Positions 16,278 to 61,668 of a DNA stretch of 64,000 nucleotides are shown one piece after another. The translations under genes and the position numbers were made by a program. Source of the stretch: Candidatus Krumholzibacteriota bacterium. Its GTDB lineage: Bacteria > Krumholzibacteriota > Krumholzibacteriia > LZORAL124-64-63. The first letter of the stretch is position 1, and every line of letters starts with the position of its first letter. The stretch is taken from contig JAKLEB010000002.1 of the NCBI GenBank assembly GCA_022711765.1, forward strand, positions 689,726 to 753,725, given 5' to 3'. The notes beneath the pieces are model-generated. The model searched no databases. It had not been told where the DNA came from and was given only the letters and a program-made list of their open reading frames with translations.

Positions 16278-18188
<1,911 letters not shown>

Positions 18189-18189
18189 G

Positions 18190-29087: not shown

Positions 29088-29126
29088 CGCACCGATATCA
29101 GAGTCGATCGAGTAATCCTCTCCTTC

Positions 29127-29158
29127 CCGGGCCTGGAGAAGCAGTACTCCAGGCCCGG
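29127..29158 (+). terminator. hairpin terminator downstream of the CRTAC1-like gene
   Basis: ccgggcctgga-gaagcagtac-tccaggcccgg is an 11-bp perfect stem 40 nt after the stop codon. Confidence 0.45.
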
Positions 29159-45788: not shown

Positions 45789-48146
45789 ATGCCCGTCGGC
45801 GCCCCACCGTCCAGCGGCCGCGAAGTCCGGGATCCGGTCTGCGGGATGACCACGACCGAGCCGTCCCGCTGGCTCGCGCAGGAGCACGCCGGCCGAATCC
45901 ACTATTTCTGCAGCGGCGGCTGCCGCGAGAGGTTCCTGCGCGACCCCGAGGCGTACGGGTCCGCGCCGGGGCACGATGCCGCCGGCCCCCGCGCGCCAGA
46001 GCCCGGACCCGCCGCTGCCGGGCGACTCTATACCTGTCCGATGCATCCCGAGGTGCGCCAGCTCGGGCCGGGGTCGTGCCCGAAGTGCGGGATGGCGCTC
46101 GAACCGGTCCTGGCCGAGTCCGACGACGAGGCCGCTGCGGACCCCGAGCTGCACGACTTCGCCCGGCGGTTGCGACTCGCCGCCGCGCTCACCCTGCCGC
46201 TGGTCCTGGTCGCCATGCGCCACATGCTCGGGCTCGGTTCGCTGGCGCACGCGTTGCCGGCGCGGGTGTGGCCCTGGCTCGAACTGCTCCTCGCGACGCC
46301 GGTCGTCGTGTGGGCCGGCTGGGTCCTGCACGCGCGGGCCTGGCGATCGCTGCGGCTCCGCAGCCCGAACATGTTCACGCTGATCGGGCTCGGGACCGGC
46401 GTGGCCTACGCGTACAGCGTGGCCGGCGTCGTCGCCCCCGGGGCGTTCCCCGCGTCGGCGCGCCTGGACGACGGCTCGGTCGGCCTGTACTTCGAGGCTG
46501 CCGCGGTGATCGTCACGCTGGTCCTCCTGGGCCAGGTGTTCGAGCTGCGCGCGCGCGGCCGCACGGGCGCCGCGATCCGGTCGCTATTGCAGCTCGCGCC
46601 GCGGACGGCGCGGCGGATCGGCGGGGACGGCACGGAGTCGGAGGTGGCGCTGTCCGCCATCCAGCCGGGCGATCGACTCCGCGTCCGTCCGGGCGAGAAG
46701 ATCCCGGTCGACGGGGTCGTCCTCGAGGGGAACAGCCGCGTCGACGAATCGATGCTCACGGGCGAACCGGCGCCGGTCGCGAAGTCGACGGCGGACCAGG
46801 TCACCGGCGGCACGGTGAACGGCTCCGGCTCCTTCGTGATGAGGGCGGACCGGGTCGGCGCCGACACCCTGCTCGCGCGGATCGTCCAGATGGTGGCGGA
46901 AGCGCAGCGCAGCCGGGCGCCGATCCAGCGGCTGGCCGACGCGGTGGCCGCGTGGTTCGTGCCGGCGGTGGTCGCGATCGCGGCCGCGGCGTTCGCGGCG
47001 TGGCTGATCTGGGGCCCGCAGCCGCGGCTCGCCCACGCGCTCGTCGCCGCGGTGTCCGTCCTGATCGTCGCCTGTCCGTGCGCGCTCGGCCTCGCGACGC
47101 CGATGTCGATCATGGTCGCCACCGGCCGCGGAGCCCTGGCGGGCGTGCTGTTCCGCAACGCCGAGGCGATCGAGAACCTCAGGCGCGTCGATACGATCGT
47201 CGTCGACAAGACCGGCACCCTCACCGAGGGCAAGCCGCGCCTGGCCGACGTGGTCGTCGCCGAAGGCTGGGACGCGGCCGAGGTGGTGAGCCTGGCGGCG
47301 GCGGTGGAGGTGGGGAGCGAGCACCCGCTCGCCGCCGCGGTCGTCGCCGGCGCGCGCGAGCGGAACGCCGGGCAGGCGGCGGCCGCCCGCGATTTCGCGT
47401 CGTACGCCGGCAAGGGAGTCACCGGCGAGGTCGGCGGGCGGACCGTCCTCGTGGGCACCGCGGACCTGCTCGCCGAGCACGGCGTCGACGGCGGCGCGCT
47501 CGCGTCGCGGGCCGAGGACCTGAGAGCCATGGCCAGCACGGTCGTCCACGTGGCCGTCGACGGCCGGCTCGCGGGTCTGCTCGCGATCGCCGACCCGATC
47601 AAGGCGAGCACGCCCGACGCGCTCGAGCGGCTGCGGGCCCTGGGACTGCGGATCGTGATGGTGACGGGCGACAGCGAGGCGACGGCGCGAGCGGTCGGGT
47701 CGAGGCTCGCGCTGTCGGACGTCGTCGCGGGGGTCCTGCCGGAGCAGAAGGCGGCGATGGTCGCGCGCCTACAGGGCGAGGGCCGCATCGTCGCGATGGC
47801 CGGCGACGGGATCAACGATGCGCCCGCGCTGGCGCGCGCCGACGTGGGGATCGCGATGGGAACGGGGACCGACGTGGCGATCCAGAGCGCTCCGGTGACG
47901 CTCGTGCGGGGAGACCTGCGAGCGATCGCGCGCGCGTACGCACTCAGCCGGGCGACCATGCGCAACATCCGCGAGAACCTCTTCTTCGCGTTCGTCTACA
48001 ACGCGCTCGGCGTACCCGTGGCGGCTGGGGTCCTGTACCCGGCCTTCGGGATCCTGCTGTCGCCGATGATCGCGGCGGCAGCCATGAGTTTCAGCTCCGT
48101 TTCGGTCGTCGCCAACGCCCTGCGGCTGCGCCGCGTCCGGCTGTGA
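45789..48146 (+). CDS. copA: copper-translocating P1B-type ATPase with N-terminal YHS/TRASH-type metal-binding domains
   Basis: DPVCGM...YFCSGGC (YHS), YTCPMHPEV...CPKCGM, CPC transmembrane motif ([12 protein letters not shown]), DKTGTLT phosphorylation site, [10 protein letters not shown]. Confidence 0.85.
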
Positions 48147-49402: not shown

Positions 49403-50113
49403 ATGCAGATCGGCGTCCGTGAGGCTGCCCGCCTCCTGACCGTTTCCGAGAAGACGATCTACCGGTGGATCAAGGACGGCCGGCTGCCCGCCTACCTGAT
49501 CAACGAGCAGTACCGCTTCAACAAGGCGGAGCTGCTCGAATGGGCCACGGGCCGCAAGATCAACGTGTCGCCCCAGATCTTCGAGGAGCCGCCGGACGCC
49601 GACCGCGTGACGCTCCCCGCGGTCAGCGAGGCGCTCGAGGCCGGTGGCATCCACTATCGCGTCGCCGGCAAGGACACGTCCGCGGTGCTGATGGCGATCG
49701 TGGAATTGATGCGGCTGCCCGACGAGGTCGACCGGACCTTTCTGCACCAGGTCCTGCTCGCCCGGGAGTCGCTCGGCTCGACCGGCGTGGGCGACGGCAT
49801 CGCGATCCCGCACGTTCGCAATCCGATCGTCCTGCACGTCCCGCGGCCGACGGTGACGCTCTGTTTCCTGGAGCGGCCGATCGATTTCGGCGCGATCGAC
49901 GGCAAGCCGGTCAGCACGCTGTTCACGATCGTGAGCCCGGCGGTCCGGGCGCACCTGCATATCCTCTCGCGCCTCGTCTTCATCCTGCGCGACCTGACGC
50001 TGCGCGACCAGCTCGCCCGTCAGGCCTCCCGCGACGAGATCCTGGCCACGGTGCGCCGGGCCGAGGCGAGGGCGGTCACGGAGCCGCCGGCGGCGCCGCG
50101 GGAGGCGCCGTGA
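49403..50113 (+). CDS. putative regulator: N-terminal HTH_17 (excisionase/MerR-type) DNA-binding domain fused to PTS EIIA(Ntr)-type (PTS_EIIA_2) domain
   Basis: LTVSEKTIYRWIKDGRLPAYLINEQYRFNKAELLEWA (HTH), then EIIA-2 fold with active-site His in GDGIAIPHVRNP. Stop overlaps the GTG start of the next gene (GTGA). Confidence 0.75.
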   Translation: MQIGVREAARLLTVSEKTIYRWIKDGRLPAYLINEQYRFNKAELLEWATGRKINVSPQIFEEPPDADRVTLPAVSEALEAGGIHYRVAGKDTSAVLMAIVELMRLPDEVDRTFLHQVLLARESLGSTGVGDGIAIPHVRNPIVLHVPRPTVTLCFLERPIDFGAIDGKPVSTLFTIVSPAVRAHLHILSRLVFILRDLTLRDQLARQASRDEILATVRRAEARAVTEPPAAPREAP

Positions 50114-52083
50114 TCCTGCTGATCGCGTCGCTCGCCCTGCTGCTCGGCGGCGGCGCCGCGGCGCTGGCCGCGTCACGCCGGGATCGGCTGAGGAACGGGA
50201 TCGTGCTCGGCAGCCTGGTCGGCGCCTCGCTCGCGTCGCTGCCCGTGGCCATCGTGACGATCGCGCGCGGCGAATCGCTGGCGCTGCAGTGGCCGTGGAG
50301 CGTACCGCTGGGGTCGTTCGCCCTGGGCCTGGATCCGCTGTCCGCCTTCTTCCTCCTGCCGATCCTGGTGCTGGCACCGCTCGCGGGGATCTACGGCGTC
50401 GGTTACCTGCGCGCGTGGCAGGGCCGCAAGAATCTGGGCGCCTCGTGGTTCTTCTTCAACGTCCTGGTCGCCTGCATGATGCTGGTGGTCGTGGCGCGCA
50501 ACGCCGTGCTCTTCCTGGTCGCCTGGGAGGCCATGGCGCTCGCGTCGTACGCGCTGGTGGTGTTCGAGGACGAGCGAGGCGACGTGCGCGGCGCCGGCCG
50601 CACCTATCTCGTCGCGACGCACCTCGGGACGGGCGCCCTCTTCGTGCTCTTCGTCCTGCTGGGCCAGCCCGCGGGCTCGCTCGACTTCGCCGACCTGGGC
50701 GCCGGCGCGGGATCGCTGTCGCTCCTCTTCGCGCTGGCCGTGATTGGTTTCGGCACCAAGGCCGGGTTCATGCCGCTGCACGTCTGGTTGCCGGAGGCCC
50801 ACCCCGCGTCGCCGAGCCACGTCTCGGCGCTGATGTCCGGCGTGATGATCAAGACCGGCATCTACGGGCTGCTGCGCATCCTCATGGTCCTCGGGGCGCC
50901 GCCGCCGGCCTGGGGCTGGACGATGGTCGCGATCGGCGCGACCTCCGGCGTGCTCGGCGTGCTCTTCGCGCTGGCCCAGCACGACGTCAAGCGGCTGCTC
51001 GCCTATCACAGCGTCGAGAACATCGGCATCATCGCGCTCGGGCTCGGCGTGGGCCTGCTGGGCCGAAGCTACGACCAGCCGGCGATGGCGTACCTCGGGT
51101 TCGCCGGGGCGCTGCTCCACGTCGCGAACCACGCGCTGTTCAAGGGGCTGCTCTTCCTGGGCGCCGGCGCCGTCGCGCACGCCACGCACACGCGCGAGAT
51201 CGATCACCTGGGCGGCCTGCTGAAGCGGATGCCCTGGACCGGAACGACCTTCCTGGCCGGCTCCGCGGCGATCAGCGGGCTGCCGCCGTTCAACGGTTTC
51301 GTGAGCGAGTTCCTCATCTTCCTGGGCGCGCTGACCGGCGCCGTCACGCTCGGCGGCGCCGGCGCCGCGGTCGGGGCGGTCACGACGGGCGCGCTCGGCC
51401 TGATCGGCGGCCTGGCGGCCGCGTGCTTCGCGAAGGCCTTCGGCATCATGTTCCTCGGCGAGCCGCGCAGCCGTCACGCGGCGGATGCGACCGAGGTGGG
51501 CCGGTCGCTGCGCGTGCCGCTCGTCGTGCTGGCCGCGGCGTGCCTCGCGATCGGCCTCGGCGCTCCGTTCGTGGTCGCCGGCCTGGACAGCGTCGTCGTC
51601 GCGGCCGCCGGGTTGCCGCCGCACGACCCGGCCGGCCGAGCGCTGGCGGGACCGCCGCTGCGCATGGTCGCGCTCGGCAGCGCCGTCCTCCTCGCGCTGG
51701 TCGGCGCGCTCGTCCTGGCTCGCCGGGGTCTGCTGGCGAGACGGACCATCACGACCGCCCTGACCTGGGATTGCGGTTACGCGGCGCCCGATCGGCGGAT
51801 GCAGTACACCGCCGCCGGCTTCGCCCAGCCGCTGACCAGCCTGTTCCGGTTCGCCCTTCGGACGCGGCGCGAGGGCGAGCCCGTGCGGGGTCTGTTCCCG
51901 GCGCGAGCGTCGCTCGCGACCTCGACCCCGGATCCGATGCACCGCGAGATCTACGAGCCGGTCTTCGCGGCGGTCGGCCGGCTGTTCGCGAAACGGCGGT
52001 GGGTGCAGGGCGGTCAGACGCAGCTCTACGTCCTGTACATCGTCCTGACGCTCCTGGTGCTCCTCGTCTGGGAGCTCTCGTGA
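50110..52083 (+). CDS. HyfB/HycC/NuoL-like proton-conducting antiporter-type membrane subunit
   Basis: 657 aa polytopic; PF00361-type core (WLPEAHPASPSHVSALMSGVMIKTGIYGLLR...). Translationally coupled at both ends. Confidence 0.8.
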   Translation: MILLIASLALLLGGGAAALAASRRDRLRNGIVLGSLVGASLASLPVAIVTIARGESLALQWPWSVPLGSFALGLDPLSAFFLLPILVLAPLAGIYGVGYLRAWQGRKNLGASWFFFNVLVACMMLVVVARNAVLFLVAWEAMALASYALVVFEDERGDVRGAGRTYLVATHLGTGALFVLFVLLGQPAGSLDFADLGAGAGSLSLLFALAVIGFGTKAGFMPLHVWLPEAHPASPSHVSALMSGVMIKTGIYGLLRILMVLGAPPPAWGWTMVAIGATSGVLGVLFALAQHDVKRLLAYHSVENIGIIALGLGVGLLGRSYDQPAMAYLGFAGALLHVANHALFKGLLFLGAGAVAHATHTREIDHLGGLLKRMPWTGTTFLAGSAAISGLPPFNGFVSEFLIFLGALTGAVTLGGAGAAVGAVTTGALGLIGGLAAACFAKAFGIMFLGEPRSRHAADATEVGRSLRVPLVVLAAACLAIGLGAPFVVAGLDSVVVAAAGLPPHDPAGRALAGPPLRMVALGSAVLLALVGALVLARRGLLARRTITTALTWDCGYAAPDRRMQYTAAGFAQPLTSLFRFALRTRREGEPVRGLFPARASLATSTPDPMHREIYEPVFAAVGRLFAKRRWVQGGQTQLYVLYIVLTLLVLLVWELS

Positions 52084-52085
52084 TC

Positions 52086-53000
52086 ATGGCCATCGCCGCC
52101 GTCATCCACCTGCTGGTCGCGCTGCTCCTGGCGCCGCTGCTGCTCGGCGTCATCAACCGGACCAAGGCCGTCTTCGCCGGACGGCGAGGGCAGCCGCTGC
52201 TGCAGCTCTACGCCGACCTCGCCAAGCTCCTGCGCAAGGGAGCCGTCTACAGCGGCACGACGACCTGGGTGTTCCGGGCGGGACCGCTCGTGACCCTGGC
52301 GGCGGTCACCGTGTCCCTGCTCGTCGTGCCGTTCGCCGGCGTGCGCGCCGTGGGGGCCTTCCCGGGCGACTTCGTGCTCTTTGCCTACCTGCTCGCCGTC
52401 GCCCGCTTCTTCACCGTGATCGCCGCGCTCGACACCGGTTCGAGTTTCGAGGGGATGGGCGCGAGCCGCGAGGTCGCCTTCTCCGCGCTGGCCGAGCCCG
52501 CCCTCCTCGTCGGGCTCGCGGCCCTGGCCAGGCGCGCCGGCGGCGCGTCTCTGTCGGACTGCTACGAGGCGGTGCGGCTCTTCGACTTCGGACCGAACGG
52601 CGGCTTGCCGCTGCTCTTGATCGGCGCAGCCTTCTTCGTCGTCTTCCTGGCGGAGAACGCGCGGATCCCGTTCGACGATCCGAACACGCACCTCGAATTG
52701 ACGATGATCCACGAGGTGATGGTCCTGGACCACGGCGGGCCGGACCTCGCGTTCGTGCAGTACGCGGCGGCGCTGAAGCTGTGGGTGCTCGGCGCCCTGG
52801 TGGTGGGAATCCTGCTGCCGCTGCGCACCGGCTTCGTCGCCCTCGACTTCGGGTTCGGCCTGGCCGCCATGGCGGTGCTGGCCGTGGCGACGGGTTGTGT
52901 CGAATCGACGAAGGCCAGGGTGCGCCTGACGGGGGTGCCCCAGTTGCTGGTGGCCGCGACGGTCCTGGCCGGAGTCGGCTTCGGGCTGACGCTGCGGTAG
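52086..53000 (+). CDS. HyfC/HycD/NuoH-like membrane subunit
   Basis: MAIAAVIHLLVALLLAPLLLGVINRTKAVFAGRRGQPLLQLYADLAKLL closely parallels the HycD/NuoH N-terminus; 304 aa. Confidence 0.8.
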   Translation: MAIAAVIHLLVALLLAPLLLGVINRTKAVFAGRRGQPLLQLYADLAKLLRKGAVYSGTTTWVFRAGPLVTLAAVTVSLLVVPFAGVRAVGAFPGDFVLFAYLLAVARFFTVIAALDTGSSFEGMGASREVAFSALAEPALLVGLAALARRAGGASLSDCYEAVRLFDFGPNGGLPLLLIGAAFFVVFLAENARIPFDDPNTHLELTMIHEVMVLDHGGPDLAFVQYAAALKLWVLGALVVGILLPLRTGFVALDFGFGLAAMAVLAVATGCVESTKARVRLTGVPQLLVAATVLAGVGFGLTLR

Positions 53001-53026: not shown

Positions 53027-53680
53027 ATGGCGGAGATGAACGACTGGATCGACGCGGCGATCGCGCTCGTCGTGCTCGGCAACCTGAGCTTGCTCGGGAC
53101 GAGCCGCCTCGTCGCCTGCATCCGGATCCTGGCGCTGCAGGGCCTCTTGCTGGGCCTGCTTCCCCTCTTCTTCCACGCGGACGACCTCACCCTGCGGGTC
53201 GTCCTCCAGGTCACCGCGAGCACGATCAGCAAGGGCATCGTCTTCCCCTGGCTGCTGACCCGCGCGGTGCGCGGCGCGGACGAGCGGCGCGAGGTCGCGC
53301 CCGTGGTCGGCTACACGCCGTCGCTGTTGATCGGCGGCGCGCTGCTCGGCCTCGCGCTGTGGCTGGGCGGGCGCCTGCCGCTGCCCGGCGACGCCGAATC
53401 GGAATTCCTGGTCGCGGTCGCGCTGAACACGACGATGGTCGGTCTCTTCCTCATCATCGCGCGGCGGATGGCGATCACCCAGGTGCTCGGCTACCTCGCA
53501 ATGGAGAACGGAATCACCACCTTCGGCCTGGTCTTCGCCGAGCGGGAACCGCTCCTGGTGGAGATGGGCATCTTCCTCGACGCGTTCATGGCGGTCTTCG
53601 TCATGGGCCTGATGGTCTACAACATCAACCGGGAGTTCCGTCACCTCGACACCGAACGGCTGTCGAACCTGACGGACTGA
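53027..53680 (+). CDS. HyfE-like small membrane subunit
   Basis: 217 aa, multiple TM helices, position and size equivalent to HyfE; GGGAGG RBS. Confidence 0.6.
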   Translation: MAEMNDWIDAAIALVVLGNLSLLGTSRLVACIRILALQGLLLGLLPLFFHADDLTLRVVLQVTASTISKGIVFPWLLTRAVRGADERREVAPVVGYTPSLLIGGALLGLALWLGGRLPLPGDAESEFLVAVALNTTMVGLFLIIARRMAITQVLGYLAMENGITTFGLVFAEREPLLVEMGIFLDAFMAVFVMGLMVYNINREFRHLDTERLSNLTD

Positions 53681-53695: not shown

Positions 53696-55159
53696 ATGAT
53701 CGTCGCCCTCGTCCTGTTGCCCCTCACGGCCGGCGCGCTGGCGTTCTTCCTGCGCAGCGACGGGCTGCGCCGCGGTCTGCTGGTCGCGACCGCGCTCGCC
53801 CACTCCGGGCTCACGGTCGCGGCGTGGCTGCGGCGGCCGCTGGCCGAGCTGGGCGGCTGGCTGGAACTGGACGACCTCGAGCTGCTCATCCTGGCGGTCA
53901 CCAGCCTGCTCTTCCTGGTCGCGGCCGTCTACGCGGTGGGCTATCTGCGCCGCGAGGGCCGGGACCAGCGGGAGGACTACACGGAGGGTTTCCTCTTCGT
54001 CAACGCGCCGGAGGCCACCTTCACTGGCTGTCTGCTGCTCTTCCTCGGCGCCATGACCCTGGTCATCGGCGCGCAGCACTTCGGCCTGATGTGGGTCGCC
54101 GTCGAGGGCACCACGCTGGCGAGCGCGCCCCTCATCCACTTCCACCGCCATCATCGGTCCCTCGAGGCCGCCTGGAAGTACCTCGTCATCTGTTCGGTCG
54201 GCATCGCGATCGCCCTGCTGGGGAACTTCTTCCTCGTGGTGGCGACCTCCGCGCTGGACGACCAGCTCGGCGGCCTGACCGTGCGGGCCCTGGCCGAACA
54301 CGCCGGCCAGCTCGATCCCACCTGGCTGCGCGCGGCGTTCCTTCTCCTGCTCGTCGGCTACGGCACCAAGATGGGCCTCGCGCCCCTGCACACGTGGCTT
54401 CCCGACGCGCACAGCGAGGCGCCGTCGGTGGTCTCGGCGCTGCTCTCGGGTGCGCTGCTGAACTGCGCGTTCCTGGCGATCCTGCGCCTGCACGGCGTGT
54501 GCGTGGCCGCGGGTCAGGCGGCGTTCAGCGCGAACCTCCTGGTGGGTTTCGGCCTGGTCTCGATGGGCTTCGCCGCGGTCTTCATCGTCGGCCAGCGCGA
54601 CTACAAGCGGATGCTGGCGTACTCCAGCGTCGAGCACATGGGCATTGCCGCCCTCGGCGTGGGGCTCGGCGGCGCCGCGGGCTTCGGCGCGCTGCTCCAC
54701 GTGGTGAACCACTCGTTGACCAAGGGCATGCTGTTCCTGATCGCGGGCAACGTACTCGCGGCGTACCGCACGCGCTCCTCCGCGGAGGTCACCGGCCTGT
54801 TGCGCGCGCTGCCCGCCAGCGGCTTGCTGTGGCTGGCGGGGTTCCTCGCGGTCACCGGGTCGCCGCCGTTCGGACCGTTCCTGAGCGAGTTCACGATCCT
54901 GCGCGGCGGATTGGCGGCGCAGCGACCGGTCATCGCGGTCGTCTACCTCGTGCTCCTGTTGCTGGTGTTCGTCGGCATGGCGATGATCGTGCCCGGCATG
55001 GCCCATGGGGAGACGAACGTCGCCCGGCGGCGGGAGCCGTGGCTGGCCGTCGTGCCGCCGGCCTGCCTGGGGATCGGCGTGCTGATCCTCGGCGTCTACG
55101 TGCCCCGTCCCCTCGCCGACGCCATCACCCGCGCTCTGGGCGCCCTGGGGCTGTCATGA
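53696..55159 (+). CDS. HyfF/NuoM/NuoN-like proton-conducting membrane subunit
   Basis: 487 aa; PF00361 core (GTKMGLAPLHTWLPDAHSEAPSVVSALLSG...). Confidence 0.8.
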   Translation: MIVALVLLPLTAGALAFFLRSDGLRRGLLVATALAHSGLTVAAWLRRPLAELGGWLELDDLELLILAVTSLLFLVAAVYAVGYLRREGRDQREDYTEGFLFVNAPEATFTGCLLLFLGAMTLVIGAQHFGLMWVAVEGTTLASAPLIHFHRHHRSLEAAWKYLVICSVGIAIALLGNFFLVVATSALDDQLGGLTVRALAEHAGQLDPTWLRAAFLLLLVGYGTKMGLAPLHTWLPDAHSEAPSVVSALLSGALLNCAFLAILRLHGVCVAAGQAAFSANLLVGFGLVSMGFAAVFIVGQRDYKRMLAYSSVEHMGIAALGVGLGGAAGFGALLHVVNHSLTKGMLFLIAGNVLAAYRTRSSAEVTGLLRALPASGLLWLAGFLAVTGSPPFGPFLSEFTILRGGLAAQRPVIAVVYLVLLLLVFVGMAMIVPGMAHGETNVARRREPWLAVVPPACLGIGVLILGVYVPRPLADAITRALGALGLS

Positions 55160-56607
55160 GTGCGCATTTGGGCAACGGCGAATCGATCGCCCTTGGTGAC
55201 CTTCCCGTCCTGTCCGTGGCGGCGCTGCGCGACGAGGTGATCGGCGGCGTCGCGCGCGGCCGGCGGCTGGCGGCGTACTTCGGCGCGGGCCGGCGGGGCG
55301 ACGCGCTGCGCGTGGTCGCCGTCGTCGCGGGGGACGACGACGGCGAGTTGCTCGCGTGCGCGGCCGACGTTTCCGGCAGCTACGACGCGCTGACGCCCGA
55401 CTGCCCCCAGGCGCACTGGTTCGAGCGCGAGCTGGCCGAGCAGTGGGGTGTCGAGCCGCGCGGCCACCCGTGGCTCAAACCGATCCGCCGCATCCCGGAC
55501 GCGTTCTTCCGCGTCGACGGCGAGGAGGTCCACGAGGTCGCCGTGGGCCCGGTCCATGCCGGCGTCATCGAACCCGGCCACTTCCGTTTCCAGTGCCACG
55601 GCGAGGAGGTGCTGCATCTCGAGATCGCGCTCGGGTACCAGCACCGCGGCGTCGAGCGCGCGCTCGTCGGTGGACCCGACCGGCGCACGCTGGCGTACAT
55701 GGAGACCCTCGCCGGCGACACCACCATCGGGCACGCCCTGGCCCACGCGCTCGTCAGGGAAGCGCTCGGCGGCGGCGGCGCGCCGCCCCGCGCCCTGGCG
55801 ATCGCCGGCATCGCCCTCGAGCTCGAGCGCCTCGCCAACCACATCGGCGACCTGGGCGCTCTCGCCGGCGACGTCGGGTTCCTTCCGACCGCCGCCTACT
55901 GCGGGCGCATCCGCGGCGACGTGCTCAACGCCACCGCCCAGCTCTGCGGCAACCGCTTCGGCCGCGGTCTCGTGCGCCCCTACGGCCTCGACCACGACGT
56001 CGACGACGCCTTGCGCGAGGATCTCCAGCGCCGGCTCGCCGCCGCCCGCCAGGACTTCGCGGTCGCCGATCGCCTGCTCTGGGACTCCCCGTCGGTGATG
56101 GCCCGATTCGAGGGCACCGGCCTGCTCTCCCTGGACGTGTGCGACGAGATCGGACTCGTCGGCCCCGCCGCCCGCGCCTGCGGCGCCGAGCGCGACGTTC
56201 GCCAGAACCACCCCCACGGCATCTACCGCTTCGTCCACATCCCGATCTGCACCTGGCCGACGGGCGACGTCTTCGGGCGCGCTCACGTCCGCTCGATCGA
56301 GGTCCAGCGGTCGTTCGCCTTCATCCAGGAGCTGCTCGACAGCCTGCCGGGCGGACCGGTCGCGCTGGAGCGCCCGGCGCCGCCGGCGGCCGACCGACTC
56401 GCCGTGGCCCTCGTCGAAGGCTGGCGCGGCGAGATCTGCCACGTCGCGCTCACGGGCGCCGATGGGCGCTTCGCGCGCTACAAGGTCGTCGACCCCTCGT
56501 TCCACAACTGGTTCGGGCTGGCGCTCGCGATGCGCGGTCAGCAGATCTCCGACTTCCCGCTCTGCAACAAGAGCTTCAATCTCAGCTACTGCGGACACGA
56601 CCTATGA
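55156..56607 (+). CDS. NuoC/NuoD-like fused 'large subunit' (HycE/HyfG homologue) lacking the canonical [NiFe]-binding cysteine motifs
   Basis: GPVHAGVIEPGHFRFQCHGEEVLHLEIALGYQHRGVE (NuoD/HycE signature). The L1 motif RxCGxCxxxH is replaced by TLAGDTTIGH, and the C-terminus LCNKSFNLSYCGHDL replaces DPCxxCxxH. ATGA coupling on both sides. Confidence 0.75.
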   Translation: MSAHLGNGESIALGDLPVLSVAALRDEVIGGVARGRRLAAYFGAGRRGDALRVVAVVAGDDDGELLACAADVSGSYDALTPDCPQAHWFERELAEQWGVEPRGHPWLKPIRRIPDAFFRVDGEEVHEVAVGPVHAGVIEPGHFRFQCHGEEVLHLEIALGYQHRGVERALVGGPDRRTLAYMETLAGDTTIGHALAHALVREALGGGGAPPRALAIAGIALELERLANHIGDLGALAGDVGFLPTAAYCGRIRGDVLNATAQLCGNRFGRGLVRPYGLDHDVDDALREDLQRRLAAARQDFAVADRLLWDSPSVMARFEGTGLLSLDVCDEIGLVGPAARACGAERDVRQNHPHGIYRFVHIPICTWPTGDVFGRAHVRSIEVQRSFAFIQELLDSLPGGPVALERPAPPAADRLAVALVEGWRGEICHVALTGADGRFARYKVVDPSFHNWFGLALAMRGQQISDFPLCNKSFNLSYCGHDL

Positions 56608-57380
56608 TCAAGACGACCCTGGCGAGGCTCCAGCAGAAACACCGGACGACCCGGTACCCGGACGGTCCGCCGCCGTCGTTGCCGGATCGCTACCGCGGCC
56701 GGCCGGTCATCGCGGCCGGCGCCTGCCCCGAGGGATGCCGGCAGTGCGCGGACGAATGTCCGACCGGCGCGATCACGCTCGAGGGGAGCGTGGGCCTGGA
56801 CCTCGGGAAGTGCCTGTTCTGCGCGAGGTGCGAGGCGGTCTGCCCGGCGCAGGCGATCCGGTTCGGCCGCGACCATCAGCTCGCCGCGAGCCGGCGCGAG
56901 GACCTGGTGCTCGGCCCCGAGGGCGCCCGCCTCGCGGTCGAGCTGAGCGACCGGCTGCGACGCCTGTTGGGCCGATCCCTGAAGCTGCGCGTGGTGAGCG
57001 CGGGGGGCTGCAACGCTTGCGAGGCCGACACGAACGTCCTGTCGACCGTCGGCTGGGATCTCGGCCGGTTCGGCATCCAGTTCGTCGCGTCGCCGCGCCA
57101 CGCCGACGGGCTCCTGATCACCGGACCGGTGACCGCGGCCATGCGCCCGGCTCTGCGCAAGACGTGGGAGGCGGTGCCCGAGCCCAAGATCGTGATCGCC
57201 GTCGGCGCGTGTGCGATCAGCGGCGGCCCCTTCCTCGGCCATGCCGAGCAGCACGACGGCGCCGCGTCGACGGTGCCGGTCGACCTCCACATCCCGGGCT
57301 GTCCGCCCCACCCGCTGACCATCCTGGACGGCCTGCTCCGGCTGCTCGGCCGGATCCCGGAACCGGAGGCCGGCGGCTGA
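56604..57380 (+). CDS. fused NuoI-like 2x[4Fe-4S] ferredoxin and NuoB/hydrogenase small-subunit-like protein
   Basis: CPEGCRQCADECP and CLFCARCEAVCP (ferredoxin half), then GGCNACEAD...SPRHADGLLITGPVT...VGACAISGGPF...PGCPP (small-subunit cluster-binding cysteines conserved). Confidence 0.75.
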   Translation: MIKTTLARLQQKHRTTRYPDGPPPSLPDRYRGRPVIAAGACPEGCRQCADECPTGAITLEGSVGLDLGKCLFCARCEAVCPAQAIRFGRDHQLAASRREDLVLGPEGARLAVELSDRLRRLLGRSLKLRVVSAGGCNACEADTNVLSTVGWDLGRFGIQFVASPRHADGLLITGPVTAAMRPALRKTWEAVPEPKIVIAVGACAISGGPFLGHAEQHDGAASTVPVDLHIPGCPPHPLTILDGLLRLLGRIPEPEAGG

Positions 57381-58531: not shown

Positions 58532-59923
58532 TCACTTCACGTACGCGAGGCGACAGGTCGCCGGACCCGCCGGGCGATCGACCCGGGCGACGTACGCGCC
58601 GGTCGCGAGCGGCCGCCCCCGGGCGTCGGCCGCATCCCAGTCCACCGTCCCGCGGCCGTCCCGCAGAGGCATCACGAGCGTGTCCACGCGGCGGCCGCGC
58701 AGATCGTAGATCACCGCCTCGGCGTTCGCCCCGACGCCGGGCGCCTCGAGCGCGAGGGTCGTCCGCCCGTTGAACGGGTTCGGACTCGCCGTCAGCCTGG
58801 CGGCCGGCGGCGCAACGGCCGAAGGGACCGCCGTCACGCCGGCGAGGCCGGCCACCGTGGCGGTCGCCGTCACGGCCACCCGCACGTTCCGCGTGGTGAA
58901 GGTCGGGTCGAGGTAGATCACGAGGTCGCCCGTCGTGTGGTAGCGGGGATTGAAGTCGGGGTCGCCCCAGTCCCAGGCTTCCTCGTGGTTGACGGCCGCA
59001 TACCCCTCCTGCCAGAACGAGTAGAAGTCGCCCCACCAGATGTCCTCGGCCTCGTGGAGGACGAAGGGCATGTCGGCGTAGGTGGTCGCCGCGTCGACGA
59101 CCGCGGCCGCGAGGCACTGCGAATGCGCGTTGGTCTCGATCTCGAGGTCGAACGGCACGCCGGGCTCCCACCACCCGACCATGTCGAAGTTCAGGGCGCC
59201 GAGGATGGCGGCGCCCTGCGACGCCTGCAGCTGGACCCACGCGCGGCTGCCGCGCAGGCCCTGCTCCTCGCCGCCGAAGAGCGCGTACTGGACGGTATAG
59301 CCCAGCTGGTGGCCGGCCAGCAGCCGGGCGCAAGTCAGCACCGCGATCGCGCCGCTCGCATTGTCGTCGGCGCCGGGAGTCGCGACCTCCGGCGCCTCGC
59401 TCGTGGCGTCGTAGTGCGCGCAGACCACCACGATCGAATCGGGCTGGACCTCGCCCACCTGGGTGGCGATGACGTTGGGCACGACGATCCCGGAGATCGT
59501 GAAGTCGTGCTGCTCGGTCGCGAGGCCCAGAGCCGCGAACCTGGCCTCGAGCTGGTCGGCCACGACGTGGATGTTCGCGTTCAGGCTGTGACGGACGCCG
59601 AGCCCCACGAGCCACTCGAGGTCGGCCTGGAGATCGCCCCAGACCACCTGGTCGGCGAGGTTCTGCACGCGCGGATCGGGGTCGCGCAGCGGGGTCCAGG
59701 CGCGCGCCGCGGCGCGCGGCGCGGGCACCGGTGCCGGCCGGGCGCCGGGCCACCGGTCGACGAGCTCGGCCGGACCCTCCACCAGCCAGAGGTCGCCGCG
59801 CCGGTCGAGGACGCGGACGCCCGGCGGAGCCGCGGGCGAGGGGACGACGAAGCGGATGTCGTCCGCCAGGGCCGCGGTCGCGACGGCGGTCAGGCAGAGC
59901 ATGGCGGCGATCGAGCGGGGCAT
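58532..59923 (-). CDS. M28-family zinc aminopeptidase with C-terminal FlgD-Ig-like domain, secreted
   Basis: Signal peptide; CAHYDATS, GADDNASG, LFGGEEQGLRGS M28 metal/catalytic motifs; C-terminus ASPNPFNGRTTLALEAP...GAYVARV. Confidence 0.8.
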   Translation of the reverse strand: MPRSIAAMLCLTAVATAALADDIRFVVPSPAAPPGVRVLDRRGDLWLVEGPAELVDRWPGARPAPVPAPRAAARAWTPLRDPDPRVQNLADQVVWGDLQADLEWLVGLGVRHSLNANIHVVADQLEARFAALGLATEQHDFTISGIVVPNVIATQVGEVQPDSIVVVCAHYDATSEAPEVATPGADDNASGAIAVLTCARLLAGHQLGYTVQYALFGGEEQGLRGSRAWVQLQASQGAAILGALNFDMVGWWEPGVPFDLEIETNAHSQCLAAAVVDAATTYADMPFVLHEAEDIWWGDFYSFWQEGYAAVNHEEAWDWGDPDFNPRYHTTGDLVIYLDPTFTTRNVRVAVTATATVAGLAGVTAVPSAVAPPAARLTASPNPFNGRTTLALEAPGVGANAEAVIYDLRGRRVDTLVMPLRDGRGTVDWDAADARGRPLATGAYVARVDRPAGPATCRLAYVK

Positions 59924-60069: not shown

Positions 60070-61668
60070 ATGACTAGCAAGATCCTGATCGCCGCGTGCG
60101 TTCTCTCGCTCCACCTCGCCTCGATCGCCGAGGCCCGCTTCATCATGTTCGACGCCCACTTCGACAATCGCGCCGTCGGCTCGAGCCTCGACCGGCGAGG
60201 CGCCCGTTTCGGCGAGCCGATCGAGGCGGACGGCGACAACCACAGCGAGGTCGTCGTCCAGGACGGCCCCGGCGACCGCTCCGTGCAGATCTGGGACACG
60301 ACCAGCACCGGCAGCGACGAGCTCACCTTCGCCCTGGTCGACGGCCGGGAGGTCGTTGACGGCAAGCTCAACATCTCGCTCGAACTGCAGCTCGACTCGG
60401 TCGACGTCTACAAGGTCGCGATCGAGGGGCCGAATCCCAACGCCATGTGGTTCTTCGACCTCACCCTCGACGCCGCCGGCATCATGTACCTGTCCGACGC
60501 CGACGATTTCCCGCTGGCCGCGTTCGACACCTATGCCGCGGGCGACCTGCTCCTGATCGAGTTGAGCTTCAACCTGAACAACGGGACCTACGATTTCACC
60601 CTCAACGGCGTCCCCGTCCTCACCAACGAGACCCACGGCCTGACGGCCTACGGCCCGGCGCTCATCGTGGTCGGCAACCAGTCCGACGGCAACGCCACCG
60701 GCTCGGTCCGGCTGGACAACCTGTCGGTCGACTGGGCGCCGGGCACCGCCGACGAGCTGCTGACGGCGAATTTCAACGACGAGCCGATCGGCCAGCCCAT
60801 CGGCACCGGCGGCGCGGCGCTCGGCCAGCCGATCGAATATTCCGGCTGCACGCCGACCGTCGAGAACGGCGGCTTCGCCACGCCCGCGCTGCTGATCCAG
60901 GACGAGTCCACGACCACCACGTCGCGCGTGCGATTCGGGTTCCTGAACGACATCGAGGCGACCGGCGATCTCTCGATCTCGTTCCGGCTGTACTTCGAAT
61001 CCCTGGAATCCTACTTCGTCTACCTCCGCGAGGAGGGCACGAGCGCGGCCCAGTTCCTCACCCTCAAATTCACCCCGACAGGCGACGTGCTGTTCGACGA
61101 CGAGACCAGCGCCGGCACGCACTACCACACCGAGTCGTACGTCGCGCAGCAGCCGATCCACGTCGAGCTGGCCTACTACGCGGCTCTCGGCGTGTACAGC
61201 GTCTGGATGGACGGCGAGCGCGTGGTGCACCGCCGCGAGCACGGGGTCGCGGGCCGCGGCATCGGCGGGATCCTCTTCGGCGCGTCCTTCGATGGCAATG
61301 TCGACGGCCAGATGCGGGTGGACGCGATCAACGTCGACGCCCTGGACGGCACGTTGACCCCGGTCCGGGAGGATGACGCGCCCGCGCTCTTGCCGGCCAC
61401 GTTCCGGGCGGCGCCCAACCCGTTCAATCCGGCGACGGCGCTGCGCTTCACGCTGCCGCAGGCGGGTCGGGTCCAGCTCGACATCGTCGATCTGCGCGGC
61501 CGCCGCGTGCGGCAGCTCGTGAGCGAGGCGCTCGCGGCGGGCGAGCACGCGGTCACCTGGCAGGGGACCGATGAGGCCGGGTGCCCGGCGGCCTCCGGCG
61601 TGTACCAGGCGCTGCTGCGTGTCGACGGTCGCCTCCGCGAGCGCGTGCCGCTCACGCTGGTGAAGTAG
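60070..61668 (+). CDS. secreted hypothetical protein (two beta-sandwich-like regions) with C-terminal FlgD-Ig-like domain
   Basis: Signal peptide MTSKILIAACVLSLHLASIAEA; C-terminus AAPNPFNPATALRFTLP...GVYQALL. Confidence 0.65.
   Translation: MTSKILIAACVLSLHLASIAEARFIMFDAHFDNRAVGSSLDRRGARFGEPIEADGDNHSEVVVQDGPGDRSVQIWDTTSTGSDELTFALVDGREVVDGKLNISLELQLDSVDVYKVAIEGPNPNAMWFFDLTLDAAGIMYLSDADDFPLAAFDTYAAGDLLLIELSFNLNNGTYDFTLNGVPVLTNETHGLTAYGPALIVVGNQSDGNATGSVRLDNLSVDWAPGTADELLTANFNDEPIGQPIGTGGAALGQPIEYSGCTPTVENGGFATPALLIQDESTTTTSRVRFGFLNDIEATGDLSISFRLYFESLESYFVYLREEGTSAAQFLTLKFTPTGDVLFDDETSAGTHYHTESYVAQQPIHVELAYYAALGVYSVWMDGERVVHRREHGVAGRGIGGILFGASFDGNVDGQMRVDAINVDALDGTLTPVREDDAPALLPATFRAAPNPFNPATALRFTLPQAGRVQLDIVDLRGRRVRQLVSEALAAGEHAVTWQGTDEAGCPAASGVYQALLRVDGRLRERVPLTLVK

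What the first reader, a model, noticed from the sequence alone, without database searches (positions are those of the whole stretch)
55156..56607. Large subunit has lost both [NiFe]-ligating cysteine pairs but keeps two differently spaced C-terminal cysteines (C-x8-C-G-H)
The NuoD/HycE signature GPVHAGVIEPGHFRF... is present and an N-terminal NuoC-like extension is fused, as in HycE/HyfG. Where group-4 hydrogenases have R-x-C-G-x-C-x3-H, this protein reads T-L-A-G-D-T-T-I-G-H (His kept, both Cys gone). The C-terminus reads ...DFPLCNKSFNLSYCGHDL instead of DPCxxCxxH.

This argues against H2 chemistry. The residual Cys...Cys-Gly-His cluster at the extreme C-terminus is still reminiscent of a metal site and is not what NuoD has either.
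Basis: seen in the sequence. Interest (0 to 1): 0.7.

Follow-up and report, generated by a model that had tools for sequence, protein, structure and literature searches.

The report
Hydrogenase-like subunit lacking nickel-iron site
This gene encodes the large subunit of an "Ehr" membrane complex, a widespread relative of energy-converting hydrogenases and respiratory complex I that has lost its nickel-iron centre and whose function is still unknown; its two unusual end cysteines are almost invariant in its own clade but not across the family.

Summary
ORF 55156-56607 (483 aa) has a HycE-like fold (predicted-model TM-score 0.91 to 7z0s_E). It reads ETLAGDTTIGH where hydrogenases have RxCGxCxxxH, and it ends in DFPLCNKSFNLSYCGHDL.

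An ungapped comparison with its nearest true [NiFe] relatives (tail DFPLINKSFELCYSCTDR) gives these equivalences:
- The four metal ligands have become Ala186, Thr189, Ser477 and Gly480.
- Cys479 sits one residue before the lost fourth ligand.
- Cys470 replaces an Ile or Val.

So the tail scaffold is inherited from a hydrogenase, and only the two cysteine positions are new. In this clade both are near-invariant (79/80 species each, at least 12 phyla). Across 96 Ehr-type representatives at 50% identity, only 52 have both, 13 have neither, and His481 varies.

[quoted passage not shown] The family has been known since 2005, and loss of the CxxC motifs defines it.

The complex does not look like a relic:
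- All 12 Fe-S cysteines of the fused small subunit are conserved.
- The hydrogenase substrate-proton path is retained.
- Two new near-invariant aspartates (188, 239) line the pocket.
- The seven-gene cassette, including a PtsN-like regulator, recurs across phyla.

It is most likely a ferredoxin-driven ion pump that reduces a non-proton acceptor. The acceptor is unknown. A new metal or thiol site is not excluded.

The parts
49403..50113 (+). Regulator: HTH_17 DNA-binding domain plus a PTS EIIA-2 (PtsN-like) domain. It is the first gene of the cassette.
   Evidence: Pfam PF12728 (4.7e-15) and PF00359 (9.6e-23). Its stop overlaps the GTG start of the next gene (GTGA at 50110-50113). It lies directly upstream of the cassette in 57 of 80 species loci, and the phospho-acceptor His of GDGIAIPH is kept in 57/57.
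50110..52083 (+). HyfB/NuoL-like antiporter-type membrane subunit
   Evidence: PF00361 1.3e-51. NCBIfam 'hydrogenase 4 subunit B' scores 630 bits over its full length, just below the cut-off of 667.
52086..53000 (+). HyfC/HycD/NuoH-like membrane anchor of the peripheral arm
   Evidence: PF00146 NADHdh 8.2e-30.
53037..53680 (+). HyfE-like small membrane subunit (NuoK-like C-terminal part). The start codon is approximate.
   Evidence: NCBIfam 'hydrogenase 4 membrane subunit' 3.7e-26; PF00420 4.6e-5. Start region read.
53696..55159 (+). HyfF/NuoM/N-like antiporter-type membrane subunit
   Evidence: PF00361 9.1e-51; NCBIfam 'hydrogenase 4 subunit F' 2.7e-114.
55156..56607 (+). Ehr-type large subunit (truncated NuoC-like N-terminus plus a NuoD/HycE-like core) without [NiFe] ligands
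   Evidence: AlphaFold2 model pLDDT 95.9. Best solved match is HycE 7z0s_E, TM-score 0.91 normalised to the query.
55546..55590 (+). Beta1-beta2 loop GPVHAGVIEPGHFRF. It contains Glu139, which corresponds to the HycE E193 / MbhL E21 proton-gate glutamate.
   Evidence: Alignments. Glu139 is kept in 105/109 Ehr sequences and in 4/4 NiFe sisters. Residue roles come from PMC9474812 and PMC7684303.
55702..55734 (+). Former L1 motif, ETLAGDTTIGH. Ala186 and Thr189 replace the two N-terminal NiFe cysteines. Asp188 is a new near-invariant residue. Gly187 sits at the position of Nqo4 Tyr87.
   Evidence: Asp188 is present in 104/109 Ehr sequences and is V/A in the NiFe sisters.
56548..56604 (+). C-terminal tail SDFPLCNKSFNLSYCGHDL. 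Ser477 and Gly480 replace the two C-terminal NiFe cysteines. Cys470, Cys479 and His481 are the features that were flagged. The chain ends at the position where HycE is cleaved (R537).
56604..57380 (+). Fused small subunit: a HycF/NuoI-like 2x[4Fe-4S] domain plus a HycG/NuoB-like proximal [4Fe-4S] domain
   Evidence: PF01058 4.5e-27 plus Fer4 families. Best PDB matches are HycG 5.4e-30 and MbhJ 2.2e-29 for the C-terminal half, and HycF 1.4e-13 for the N-terminal half. All 12 ligand cysteines are kept in >=73 of 75 sequences.

Best explanation
The gene encodes the large subunit (EhrL-type) of an Ehr complex. This is a six-subunit membrane complex that descends from a Hyf-type group 4 [NiFe] hydrogenase and has lost the NiFe centre.

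Shown:
- All four metal-ligand cysteines are replaced.
- The fold is HycE-like.
- The tail that carries Cys470, Cys479 and His481 is the ancestral hydrogenase tail with two new cysteine positions. These are fixed in this clade but variable in the wider family.
- The three-cluster Fe-S wire of the small subunit, the hydrogenase substrate-proton path and the gene cassette are all under strong conservation.

Inferred mechanism:
1. Electrons enter at the ferredoxin-like 2x[4Fe-4S] domain. The donor is most likely reduced ferredoxin, because no dehydrogenase module is encoded with the cassette.
2. They pass to the hydrogenase-type proximal [4Fe-4S] cluster.
3. They reduce, with protonation, a non-proton acceptor bound in the remodelled former NiFe pocket (Glu139 gate, Arg424/Asn228/Asn475 canopy, new Asp188 and Asp239, Ser477, Cys479).
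4. The reaction is coupled through the beta1-beta2 loop and the NuoH-like anchor to ion translocation by the two antiporter-like subunits.

The acceptor is unknown. My ranking is a membrane quinone (about 0.3), a sulfur or disulfide compound (about 0.2), and something else for the remainder.

On this reading the tail cysteines are clade-specific pocket or second-shell residues, not the family's universal catalytic ligands.
For: Identity:
- Pfam and NCBIfam place all six structural genes in the Hyf/Nuo families.
- Best PDB sequence hit is HycE at 1.1e-40, then Nqo4 at 6.2e-34 and MbhL at 3e-29.
- The predicted model (pLDDT 95.9) matches HycE with TM-score 0.91, and no closer solved structure exists.
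- PF00374 (NiFeSe_Hases) hits the sister hydrogenase but not this protein.

Ligand loss and tail ancestry:
- Ungapped comparison with sisters P0229, P0236, P0245 and P0251.
- A neighbour-joining tree rooted on those sisters gives the order: Ehr forms with no tail Cys, then Cys470 only, then Cys470 plus Cys479.

Not a relic:
- 6027 representatives at 50% identity match at E <= 1e-3.
- The cassette is conserved in 80 species from at least 12 phyla.
- All 12 Fe-S cysteines are conserved.
- The small subunit has the hydrogenase-type GGCNACE motif.
- Glu139, His229, Arg340, Glu382 and Arg424 correspond to HycE E193, H284, R395, E437 and R478 (roles from PMC9474812) and are kept in 99-107 of 109 Ehr sequences.

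No attached partner: no flanking gene family recurs in more than 7 of 80 loci.

Literature: Ehr complexes lack the CxxC motifs, are not considered hydrogenases, and have no known function (PMC10284858, PMC12342949, PMC6349859, PMC5037454, PMC10432482).
Against: - No donor or acceptor is demonstrated. Ferredoxin is inferred only from domain type and from the absence of a partner gene.
- The quinone ligands of complex I are absent: Gly187 sits at the Nqo4 Tyr87 position and Ile138 at His38.
- The near-invariance of Cys470, Cys479 and His481 across phyla within this clade, and the co-occurrence of four Ehr-specific cysteines (147, 264, 470, 479), could mean a specific site that I am underrating.
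- Spatial proximity could not be measured.
- Orthology to the name-giving Geobacter Ehr was not testable.
- hyp maturation genes elsewhere in the genome cannot be excluded from a 64-kb window.
Confidence: 0.7

Rival explanations
1. One reading: the tail cysteines and histidine, possibly with Cys147, Cys264 and Asp188, form a new metal-binding or redox-active thiol site. This site would replace the NiFe centre and would be the catalytic centre of this clade, for example a mononuclear Fe/Ni/Zn site or a thiol/disulfide relay fed by the proximal cluster.
For: - Cys470 and Cys479 are each present in 79/80 species and His481 in 77/80. In the close homologues they are 120/120, 120/120 and 117/120.
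- Cys479 is flanked by the positions of the two lost C-terminal ligands.
- The four Ehr-specific cysteines most often occur together, and Cys479 never occurs without Cys147 (35 against 0).
- The proton path to the pocket is retained.
Against: - 44 of 96 Ehr representatives lack one or both tail cysteines, and His481 is present in only 42/101 tails.
- The substitutes are Ser/Ala/Ile/Val.
- The cysteines are no more conserved than the whole inherited tail.
- Co-occurrence is confounded by nested phylogeny.
- Cys470 lies mid-helix (H464-474) and Cys479 lies in the terminal coil. Their distance is unknown.
- MBS precedent: the C85A/C385A mutant remained active (PMC7684303).
Confidence: 0.15
2. The complex is specifically a ferredoxin:quinone oxidoreductase. 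It would be a minimal complex-I/NDH-1-like enzyme, possibly reversible, with the pocket serving as a quinone site.
For: - A NuoH-like anchor and two antiporter-like subunits are present.
- Asp239 aligns with Nqo4 Asp139. It is near-invariant in Ehr (102/109) but is Gly in 3 of 4 NiFe sisters.
- The family occurs in many aerobic, quinone-respiring genera (Variovorax, Burkholderia, Sinorhizobium, Rhodococcus, Allomeiothermus).
- Ehr has been described as a link between hydrogenases and complex I (PMC6728331, citing Marreiros 2013).
Against: - Tyr87 and His38 equivalents are absent (Gly187, Ile138).
- The small subunit has the hydrogenase CxxC motif, not the complex-I CC motif.
- There are no NuoA or NuoJ homologues in the cassette.
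- The beta1-beta2 loop is hydrogenase-like, with the proton-gate Glu retained.
Confidence: 0.3
3. The complex is a decaying, non-functional remnant of a hydrogenase, as assumed for Geobacter in PMC13194489.
For: The catalytic metal ligands are lost. One paper treats Ehr as non-functional (PMC13194489).
Against: - The tail and the beta1-beta2 loop are the most conserved segments.
- All 12 Fe-S cysteines are kept.
- The cassette is syntenic across at least 12 phyla, with overlapping start and stop codons.
- There are thousands of homologues.
- All Ehr subunits were detected, and were more abundant on formate, in Geobacter proteomes (PMC7894505).
Confidence: 0.03
4. It is a normal [NiFe] hydrogenase whose CxxC motifs are hidden by sequencing or assembly errors.
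For: None found.
Against: The same Cys-less motifs occur in 120 independent homologues and in 80 species genomes. The reading frame is continuous and is translationally coupled on both sides.
Confidence: 0.01

Closest known systems
Ehr (energy-converting / Ech-hydrogenase-related) complexes: Geobacter sulfurreducens GSU0739-45, Nitrospira, the M. tuberculosis Rv0082-87 locus
   Same: - The large subunit is homologous to group 4 hydrogenases but lacks the CxxC NiFe ligands.
- It is encoded together with NuoL/M-like, NuoH-like and HyfE-like membrane subunits and an Fe-S small subunit.
- The function is unknown (PMC7894505, PMC10284858, PMC12342949, PMC6728331).
- A Nitrospiraceae MAG carries a 63%-identical copy in the same gene order (L014).
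   Different: - Direct orthology to the Geobacter or M. tuberculosis proteins could not be tested. Neither was among the 80 best genome hits.
- I found no mention in the accessible literature of the C-x8-C-G-H tail, of Asp188/Asp239, or of the PtsN-like regulator. Coppi 2005 and Marreiros 2013 could not be read.
E. coli formate hydrogenlyase large subunit HycE (PDB 7z0s_E) and the Hyf (hydrogenase-4) operon
   Same: - Best sequence match (1.1e-40) and best structural match (TM-score 0.91).
- Fused NuoC-like N-terminus.
- EPGH beta1-beta2 loop with the proton-gate Glu.
- Canopy Arg and proton-path residues are retained.
- Hyf-like gene order.
- The chain ends at the position of the HycE processing site.
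   Different: - Cys241, Cys244, Cys531 and Cys534 are replaced by Ala, Thr, Ser and Gly.
- The canopy Asp529 is Asn475.
- There is no formate dehydrogenase, no HyfD, and no C-terminal extension.
- HycF and HycG are fused into one polypeptide.
- Sequence identity is only 26%.
Sister [NiFe] hydrogenases with the same architecture (e.g. P0271, 'Candidatus Wujingus californicus'; probably HydDB group 4f, by the statement in PMC10284858 that Ehr is close to 4f)
   Same: - The same six-gene layout, including the fused small subunit.
- An almost identical tail scaffold, DFPL[IV]NKSFELCYSCxD[LR].
- 34-39% identity to the query.
   Different: - They keep ER[IV]CG[VA]C..H and CxxC, and they hit PF00374.
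- They lack Asp188 (V/A) and mostly lack Asp239 (G).
- There is no PtsN-like regulator upstream.
MBS (Mbx) sulfane-sulfur reductase of Pyrococcus furiosus, MbsL/MbsJ (PDB 6u8y)
   Same: It is a hydrogenase-derived, ferredoxin-driven ion pump that has lost NiFe and reduces a non-proton acceptor, with residual cysteines near the proximal cluster (PMC7684303).
   Different: - MBS keeps two of the original ligand positions, whereas here all four are lost and the cysteines sit at new positions.
- MBS lacks the proton-gate Glu and has a three-Cys proximal cluster on a shortened motif. Here Glu139 and a full-length CxxC motif are present.
- The sequence match is much weaker (1.3e-17).
- The membrane arm is of a different, Mrp type.
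Complex I NuoD / Nqo4 / 49-kDa subunit
   Same: - No NiFe ligands.
- The Asp139 equivalent is present (Asp239).
- No C-terminal extension.
- NCBIfam NuoD models hit, but well below their cut-offs (164 bits against 360).
   Different: - No Tyr87 or His38 equivalents.
- The beta1-beta2 loop is hydrogenase-type.
- The partner NuoB-like domain has CxxC rather than CC.
- There are no NuoA, NuoJ or NuoEFG homologues.

Membership tests
[quoted passage not shown] | N-terminal L1 motif RxCGxCxxxH with two metal-ligand cysteines | tested here: not met
   It reads E-T-L-A-G-D-T-T-I-G-H. Ala186 and Thr189 sit at the Cys positions.
[quoted passage not shown] | C-terminal L2 motif [DE][PL]CxxCxx[HR] with two metal-ligand cysteines | tested here: not met
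   N-L-S-Y-C-G-H-D-L. Ser477 and Gly480 sit at the Cys positions, and Cys479 is off-register by one residue.
[quoted passage not shown] | Match to the Pfam NiFeSe_Hases model (PF00374) | tested here: not met
   Only PF00346 and PF00329 hit the query. PF00374 is on record for the sister P0271.
[quoted passage not shown] | HycE-like fold, beta1-beta2 loop proton-gate glutamate and canopy arginine | tested here: met
   TM-score 0.91 to 7z0s_E. Glu139 corresponds to HycE E193 and Arg424 to R478.
[quoted passage not shown] | Hyp maturation machinery present in the genome | not testable with these tools
   No hyp-like gene was found among the window genes scanned around the locus (39.9-63.7 kb), and none recurs in the flanks of 80 loci. 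The rest of the genome is not available.
Ehr (hydrogenase-related) complex | Large subunit homologous to group 4 hydrogenases but lacking all NiFe-ligand cysteines | tested here: met
   The definition is as given in PMC10284858, PMC12342949 and PMC6349859.
Ehr (hydrogenase-related) complex | Encoded with antiporter-like, NuoH-like and HyfE-like membrane subunits and an Fe-S small subunit | tested here: met
   The subunit list matches the EhrA/C/L/S description in PMC7894505.
Ehr (hydrogenase-related) complex | Orthology to the name-giving Geobacter sulfurreducens EhrL (GSU0739-45 cluster) | not testable with these tools
   The Geobacter sequence was not retrievable, and it was not among the 80 best of 273 genome hits. 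Coppi 2005 is not held.
Complex I NuoD/Nqo4 (quinone-reducing) | Quinone head-group ligands Tyr87 and His38 (T. thermophilus numbering) | tested here: not met
   Gly187 and Ile138 sit at these positions in the ungapped HMMER alignment to 2fug_4.
Complex I NuoD/Nqo4 (quinone-reducing) | Score above the NCBIfam NuoD cut-off | tested here: not met
   NF004739 scores 164 bits against a cut-off of 360. TIGR01962 scores 127 against 459.
Complex I NuoD/Nqo4 (quinone-reducing) | Partner NuoB with adjacent CC ligands, and NuoA/J/K plus NuoEFG subunits | tested here: not met
   The small subunit has GGCNACE (CxxC), aligned ungapped to HycG and MbhJ. No NuoA, NuoJ or NuoEFG homologue is in the cassette.
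MBS/Mbx sulfane-sulfur reductase | Two of the four original NiFe cysteines retained; proton-gate Glu absent; proximal cluster with three Cys on a shortened motif | tested here: not met
   None of the four original positions is Cys. Glu139 is present. The full-length CxxC motif is present with all four cysteines. The features are as described in PMC7684303.

The most novel reading that the evidence does not exclude
In the large, cross-phylum clade to which this protein belongs, the Ehr-specific cysteines would assemble a new, non-NiFe metal or thiol-based catalytic site in the old hydrogenase pocket. The candidates are Cys479 and Cys470, possibly with Cys147 and Cys264, together with His481 and the new Asp188. 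The site would still be served by the intact hydrogenase proton path and by the proximal cluster. Ehr would then have a so far undescribed proton-coupled reductase chemistry, conceivably even H2 turnover without nickel-iron.
Probability: 0.12. Interest if true: 0.85.

Novelty: new member of a known kind. Interest (0 to 1): 0.42.

Why it matters
Ehr complexes are among the most widespread members of the complex-I superfamily that still have no assigned function. This search found 6027 cluster representatives at 50% identity. They include nitrifiers, Geobacter, mycobacteria and many uncultured phyla.

Loss of the NiFe ligands is already known and is not news.

This analysis adds a residue-level map of what replaced the metal site:
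- The tail scaffold is inherited from a hydrogenase.
- The Fe-S wire and the substrate-proton path are retained.
- Asp188 and Asp239 are family-wide gains.
- Cysteines were acquired stepwise, and the Cys470/Cys479/His481 set is fixed in one large clade.
- The cassette is autonomous and carries a PtsN-like regulator.

Together these argue that the pocket still performs proton-coupled redox chemistry. They also give concrete mutagenesis targets, and cultured carriers such as Variovorax sp. PBL-E5, for attacking the open question of what Ehr does.

Tried and rejected
- **Measuring Cys-Cys distances.** Structure prediction gave a confident model but no coordinates. The spatial test of the metal-site idea could not be done.
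- **afdb50 fold search** to find named UniProt relatives such as Geobacter EhrL: the library was unavailable.
- **Primary Ehr papers.** Coppi 2005 and Marreiros 2013 are not held. What they say is cited only through later papers or from memory.
- **Literature search on 'EhrL'.** It was swamped by Ehrlichia hits and was wasted.
- **Conserved partner genes.** Clustering the flanking ORFs of 80 loci found no family in more than 7 loci. An attached formate dehydrogenase, as proposed for other Ehr clades in PMC6349859, is not supported for this clade.
- **rRNA or ncRNA explanation for the low-GC stretch at 26-33 kb.** There is no Rfam hit in the window.
- **Sequencing-error explanation.** Rejected.
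- **Pseudogene or relic explanation.** Rejected on conservation.
- **Cysteine co-occurrence statistics.** These are suggestive but are confounded by the nested phylogeny seen, so I do not treat them as evidence of contact.

Full report
**1. The observation**

Window 55156-56607 (+) is an uninterrupted ORF of 483 codons. Its ATG overlaps the stop of the preceding gene (ATGA). Its TGA overlaps the ATG of the following gene. It therefore sits inside a translationally coupled operon.

- GPVHAGVIEPGHFRF at residues 131-145.
- METLAGDTTIGH at residues 182-193.
- The C-terminus ISDFPLCNKSFNLSYCGHDL, with Cys470, Cys479 and His481.

Pfam finds the complex-I 49-kDa domain (PF00346, 9.3e-36) and a short piece of the 30-kDa/NuoC domain (PF00329, 24.2 bits against a cut-off of 22.5). 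It does not find the NiFeSe hydrogenase model. NCBIfam NuoD models hit far below their cut-offs.

**2. The locus**

The gene is the sixth of a seven-gene, same-strand cassette:

| Coordinates | Product |
|---|---|
| 49403-50113 | HTH_17 plus PTS-EIIA (PtsN-like) regulator |
| 50110-52083 | HyfB/NuoL-like |
| 52086-53000 | HyfC/NuoH-like |
| about 53037-53680 | HyfE-like |
| 53696-55159 | HyfF/NuoM-like |
| 55156-56607 | Large subunit |
| 56604-57380 | Single polypeptide fusing a HycF/NuoI-like 2x[4Fe-4S] domain to a HycG/NuoB-like domain |

An identical protein is on record from 'Candidatus Krumholzibacteria bacterium' MAGs. The neighbouring genes are unrelated: PdxS/PdxT, a P-type ATPase, a GNAT, a GFO/IDH/MocA oxidoreductase on the other strand, and an M28 peptidase.

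**3. Relation to solved structures**

By sequence, the closest solved chain is E. coli HycE (7z0s_E, 1.1e-40). Next come T. thermophilus Nqo4 (6.2e-34), P. furiosus MbhL (3e-29) and, much further away, MbsL (6u8y_L, 1.3e-17).

An AlphaFold2 model built on a 113-sequence alignment is confident (pLDDT 95.9, pTM 0.95). Its best Foldseek match in the PDB is again HycE (query-normalised TM-score 0.91, 26% identity), followed by the fused NuoCD of E. coli. Nothing closer has been solved.

The HMMER alignments are ungapped across the functional motifs. They give a residue map that agrees with the numbering used in the FHL structure paper (PMC9474812):

| This protein | Equivalent |
|---|---|
| Glu139 | HycE E193 / MbhL E21 (proton gate) |
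| Ala186, Thr189 | HycE C241, C244 |
| Asn228, His229 | HycE S283, H284 |
| Arg340 | HycE R395 |
| Glu382 | HycE E437 |
| Arg424 | HycE R478 (canopy) |
| Asn475 | HycE D529 (canopy) |
| Ser477, Gly480 | HycE C531, C534 |
| Leu483 | HycE R537 (site of C-terminal processing) |

Against Nqo4:
- Gly187 sits at the Tyr87 position.
- Ile138 sits at the His38 position.
- Asp239 sits at the Asp139 position.

**4. Conservation of the tail**

Among the 120 best homologues (59-100% identity; Planctomycetota, Acidobacteriota, Deltaproteobacteria, Kryptonia and others):
- Cys470 and Cys479 are 120/120 and His481 is 117/120.
- Residues 465-483 form the most conserved 19-residue window of the whole protein: 18/19 columns at >=97.5%, against 34% of all columns.

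A scan of one genome per species found 273 relatives. In the best 80 (all MAGs, at least 12 phyla):
- 72 share the identical 19-residue tail.
- One natural variant has Cys479 to Ser and one has Cys470 to Ile.

**5. Where the tail comes from**

A search of 1.84 billion cluster representatives at 50% identity found 6027 relatives at E <= 1e-3. Among the best 150 there are genuine [NiFe] enzymes (P0229, P0236, P0245, P0251, P0253). They carry ER[IV]CG[VA]C..H and the tail DFPL[IV]NKSFELCYSCxD[LR].

Placed next to DFPLCNKSFNLSYCGHDL, without any gap, this shows three things:
- The tail is inherited almost letter for letter from a hydrogenase.
- The two ligand cysteines became Ser477 and Gly480.
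- The two cysteines of the finding are at new positions. Cys479 is the residue before the lost fourth ligand (Ser/Ala in the hydrogenases). Cys470 replaces Ile/Val in the last helix (H464-474 in the model).

One such sister, from 'Candidatus Wujingus californicus', has the same six structural genes in the same order, including the fused small subunit. It has a PF00374 hit and no PtsN-like regulator.

**6. How general the triad is**

Of 96 Ehr-type representatives with an intact tail:

| Tail cysteines | Representatives |
|---|---|
| Both | 52 |
| Cys470 only | 25 |
| Cys479 only | 6 |
| Neither | 13 |

Position 481 is His in only 42 of 101 tails. Otherwise it is N/F/V/T/Y.

A neighbour-joining tree rooted on the hydrogenases gives a stepwise picture:
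1. Basal Ehr forms read ER-I-S-G-D-S ... SYSGND[LR], with serines at the ligand positions and no tail Cys.
2. Next come clades with Cys470 only.
3. Last come clades with Cys470 plus Cys479, which include the query's clade.

The family-wide features are different ones:
- Ser477 and Gly480.
- A new Asp188 between the two lost N-terminal ligands (104/109 Ehr; V/A in the sisters).
- Asp239 (102/109 Ehr; Gly in 3 of 4 sisters).

Two further Ehr-specific cysteines, Cys147 and Cys264, tend to accompany the tail pair, and Cys479 never occurs without Cys147. This statistic is not corrected for the nested phylogeny. The replacement spectrum at all four sites (Ser/Ala/Val/Ile/Thr) is that of buried small residues.

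**7. Relic or working enzyme**

Several results argue against a relic:
- All 12 cysteines expected to hold three [4Fe-4S] clusters in the small subunit are kept in at least 73 of 75 orthologues, collected without regard to motif.
- The proximal-cluster motif GGCNACE aligns ungapped with HycG and MbhJ. It is not the complex-I CC type and it is not shortened as in MbsJ (PMC7684303).
- The residues that PMC9474812 assigns to the substrate-proton pathway of hydrogenases (E193, H284, R395, E437, R478) are kept in 99-107 of 109 Ehr sequences.
- The seven-gene cassette is syntenic in essentially every locus with enough flank.
- No other gene family recurs next to it, with a maximum of 7 of 80 loci. 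There is no formate dehydrogenase, no NuoEFG, no CO dehydrogenase and no hyp genes.

These facts contradict the view that Ehr is simply non-functional (PMC13194489). They indicate an autonomous, redox-active, proton-consuming site.

**8. Comparison with the literature**

Complexes with exactly these properties are known as Ehr (Ech- or energy-converting-hydrogenase-related) complexes:
- They were first described in Geobacter sulfurreducens (GSU0739-45; EhrA/C/L/S, PMC7894505).
- They were later called a link between group 4 hydrogenases and complex I (Marreiros 2013, as cited in PMC6349859 and PMC6728331). I could not read the primary papers.
- HydDB deliberately excludes them from the hydrogenases (PMC5037454).
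- They occur in about half of the analysed Nitrospirales genomes (PMC12342949).
- They occur in comammox Nitrospira, where they are placed close to group 4f (PMC10284858).
- They occur in ammonia-oxidising archaea (PMC10432482), in CPR bacteria (PMC7304191) and in M. tuberculosis (PMC6728331).
- All these papers state that the function is unknown.
- Expression hints are sparse. Abundance was higher on formate in Geobacter (PMC7894505). There was no induction by H2 in N. moscoviensis (PMC12342949).

A Nitrospiraceae MAG carries a 63%-identical copy in the same cassette (L014). Related cassettes sit on plasmids of cultured Variovorax, Allomeiothermus, Burkholderia, Sinorhizobium, Rhizobium and Rhodococcus. 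The Variovorax sp. PBL-E5 protein ends ...DFPLCNKSFDLSYCGNDL: both cysteines are present, with Asn in place of His.

I found no mention of the new cysteine positions, of Asp188/Asp239, or of the regulator in the accessible literature.

**9. Most likely mechanism (inferred)**

1. Reduced ferredoxin, or another low-potential carrier, docks on the ferredoxin-like domain.
2. Electrons pass over three [4Fe-4S] clusters to the former NiFe pocket.
3. There, an acceptor other than H+ is reduced and protonated through the retained Glu139 / Arg424 / His229 / Glu382 / Arg340 path.
4. The energy is transmitted through the beta1-beta2 loop and the NuoH-like anchor to the two antiporter-like subunits.

The acceptor cannot be identified from sequence:
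- A quinone is favoured by the Asp239 gain and by the occurrence of the family in aerobes. It is disfavoured by the missing Tyr and His ligands.
- A sulfur or disulfide compound is suggested by the cysteine-enriched pocket and by the MBS analogy. However, MBS lacks the proton path, and its residual cysteines are dispensable (PMC7684303).

**10. Verdict**

'Not a hydrogenase' is right and already known. 'A metal-site-like residual cluster' is not supported at family level and is untested at clade level.
- The object is a new member of a known but functionally unassigned family.
- Interest is moderate. The loss of the ligands is textbook for Ehr. The residue map, the evidence for a live proton-coupled site, and the conserved PtsN-like regulator sharpen a twenty-year-old open question without answering it.

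Noticed in passing
window 49403-50113 (+), and upstream of the cassette in loci L001-L080: A regulator that fuses an excisionase/MerR-type HTH (HTH_17) to a PTS EIIA-2 (PtsN-like) domain is translationally coupled to the first structural gene (GTGA overlap). It is found in 57 of 80 species loci, and the phospho-acceptor His (GDGIAIPH) is kept in 57/57. It is absent from the sister [NiFe] hydrogenase locus and from the Variovorax and Allomeiothermus plasmid cassettes. This suggests PTS(Ntr)-type phosphorylation control of this Ehr clade.
   Followed up: partly
window 56604-57380 (+): The small subunit is a single polypeptide that combines the HycF/NuoI-like two-cluster ferredoxin domain with the HycG/NuoB-like proximal-cluster domain. 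These are separate proteins in FHL, MBH and complex I. The same fusion exists in the sister [NiFe] hydrogenase (L081).
   Followed up: partly
window residues Cys147, Cys264, Cys470, Cys479 of the ORF 55156-56607 (alignment A1): Four Ehr-specific cysteines tend to occur together. All four together is the commonest pattern among representatives at 50% identity, and Cys479 never occurs without Cys147 (35 against 0). Whether they are close in space is unknown. The statistic is not corrected for phylogeny.
   Followed up: partly
alignment A1, position 186 (e.g. P0134, P0164, P0187, P0146, P0176, P0177, P0137, P0151): Eight of 68 Ehr representatives have a cysteine at the position of the first NiFe ligand (motif ESICGDS), although they lack the other three ligands.
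   Followed up: no
L085 (Variovorax sp. PBL-E5 plasmid 3, NZ_LR594673.1), locus coordinates 3734-11018 and 14430-19257: Two Hyf-like cassettes lie about 4 kb apart on one plasmid. The first is Ehr-type (tail ...CNKSFDLSYCGNDL). The second is annotated hyfB / NuoH / formate hydrogenlyase / hyfF and was not examined for NiFe ligands.
   Followed up: no
L083 7011-8807 (metagenome contig carrying the basal Ehr P0296): A flavoprotein gene (FAD_binding_2 plus Succ_DH_flav_C) lies directly downstream of a basal, cysteine-free Ehr cassette. It is a possible partner in that clade. It was seen in one locus only.
   Followed up: no
window 25773-33269 (+): There is a low-GC stretch (0.55-0.63, against 0.70-0.75 elsewhere). 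It holds two genes of more than 1100 aa (FG-GAP/ASPIC repeats; BACON domain), both ending in FlgD_ig / Por_Secre_tail sorting-type domains. Two further genes near the cassette, 58532-59923 (-) (an M28 peptidase) and 60070-61668 (+), end in the same FlgD_ig domain. No Rfam family matches anywhere in the window.
   Followed up: partly
window 45789-48146 (+): A P-type ATPase gene lies upstream of the cassette. Its N-terminus carries cysteine-rich motifs (CGM...FCSGGC and CPMHPE...CPKCGM), which by eye look like heavy-metal-binding domains. It was not scanned against any library.
   Followed up: no
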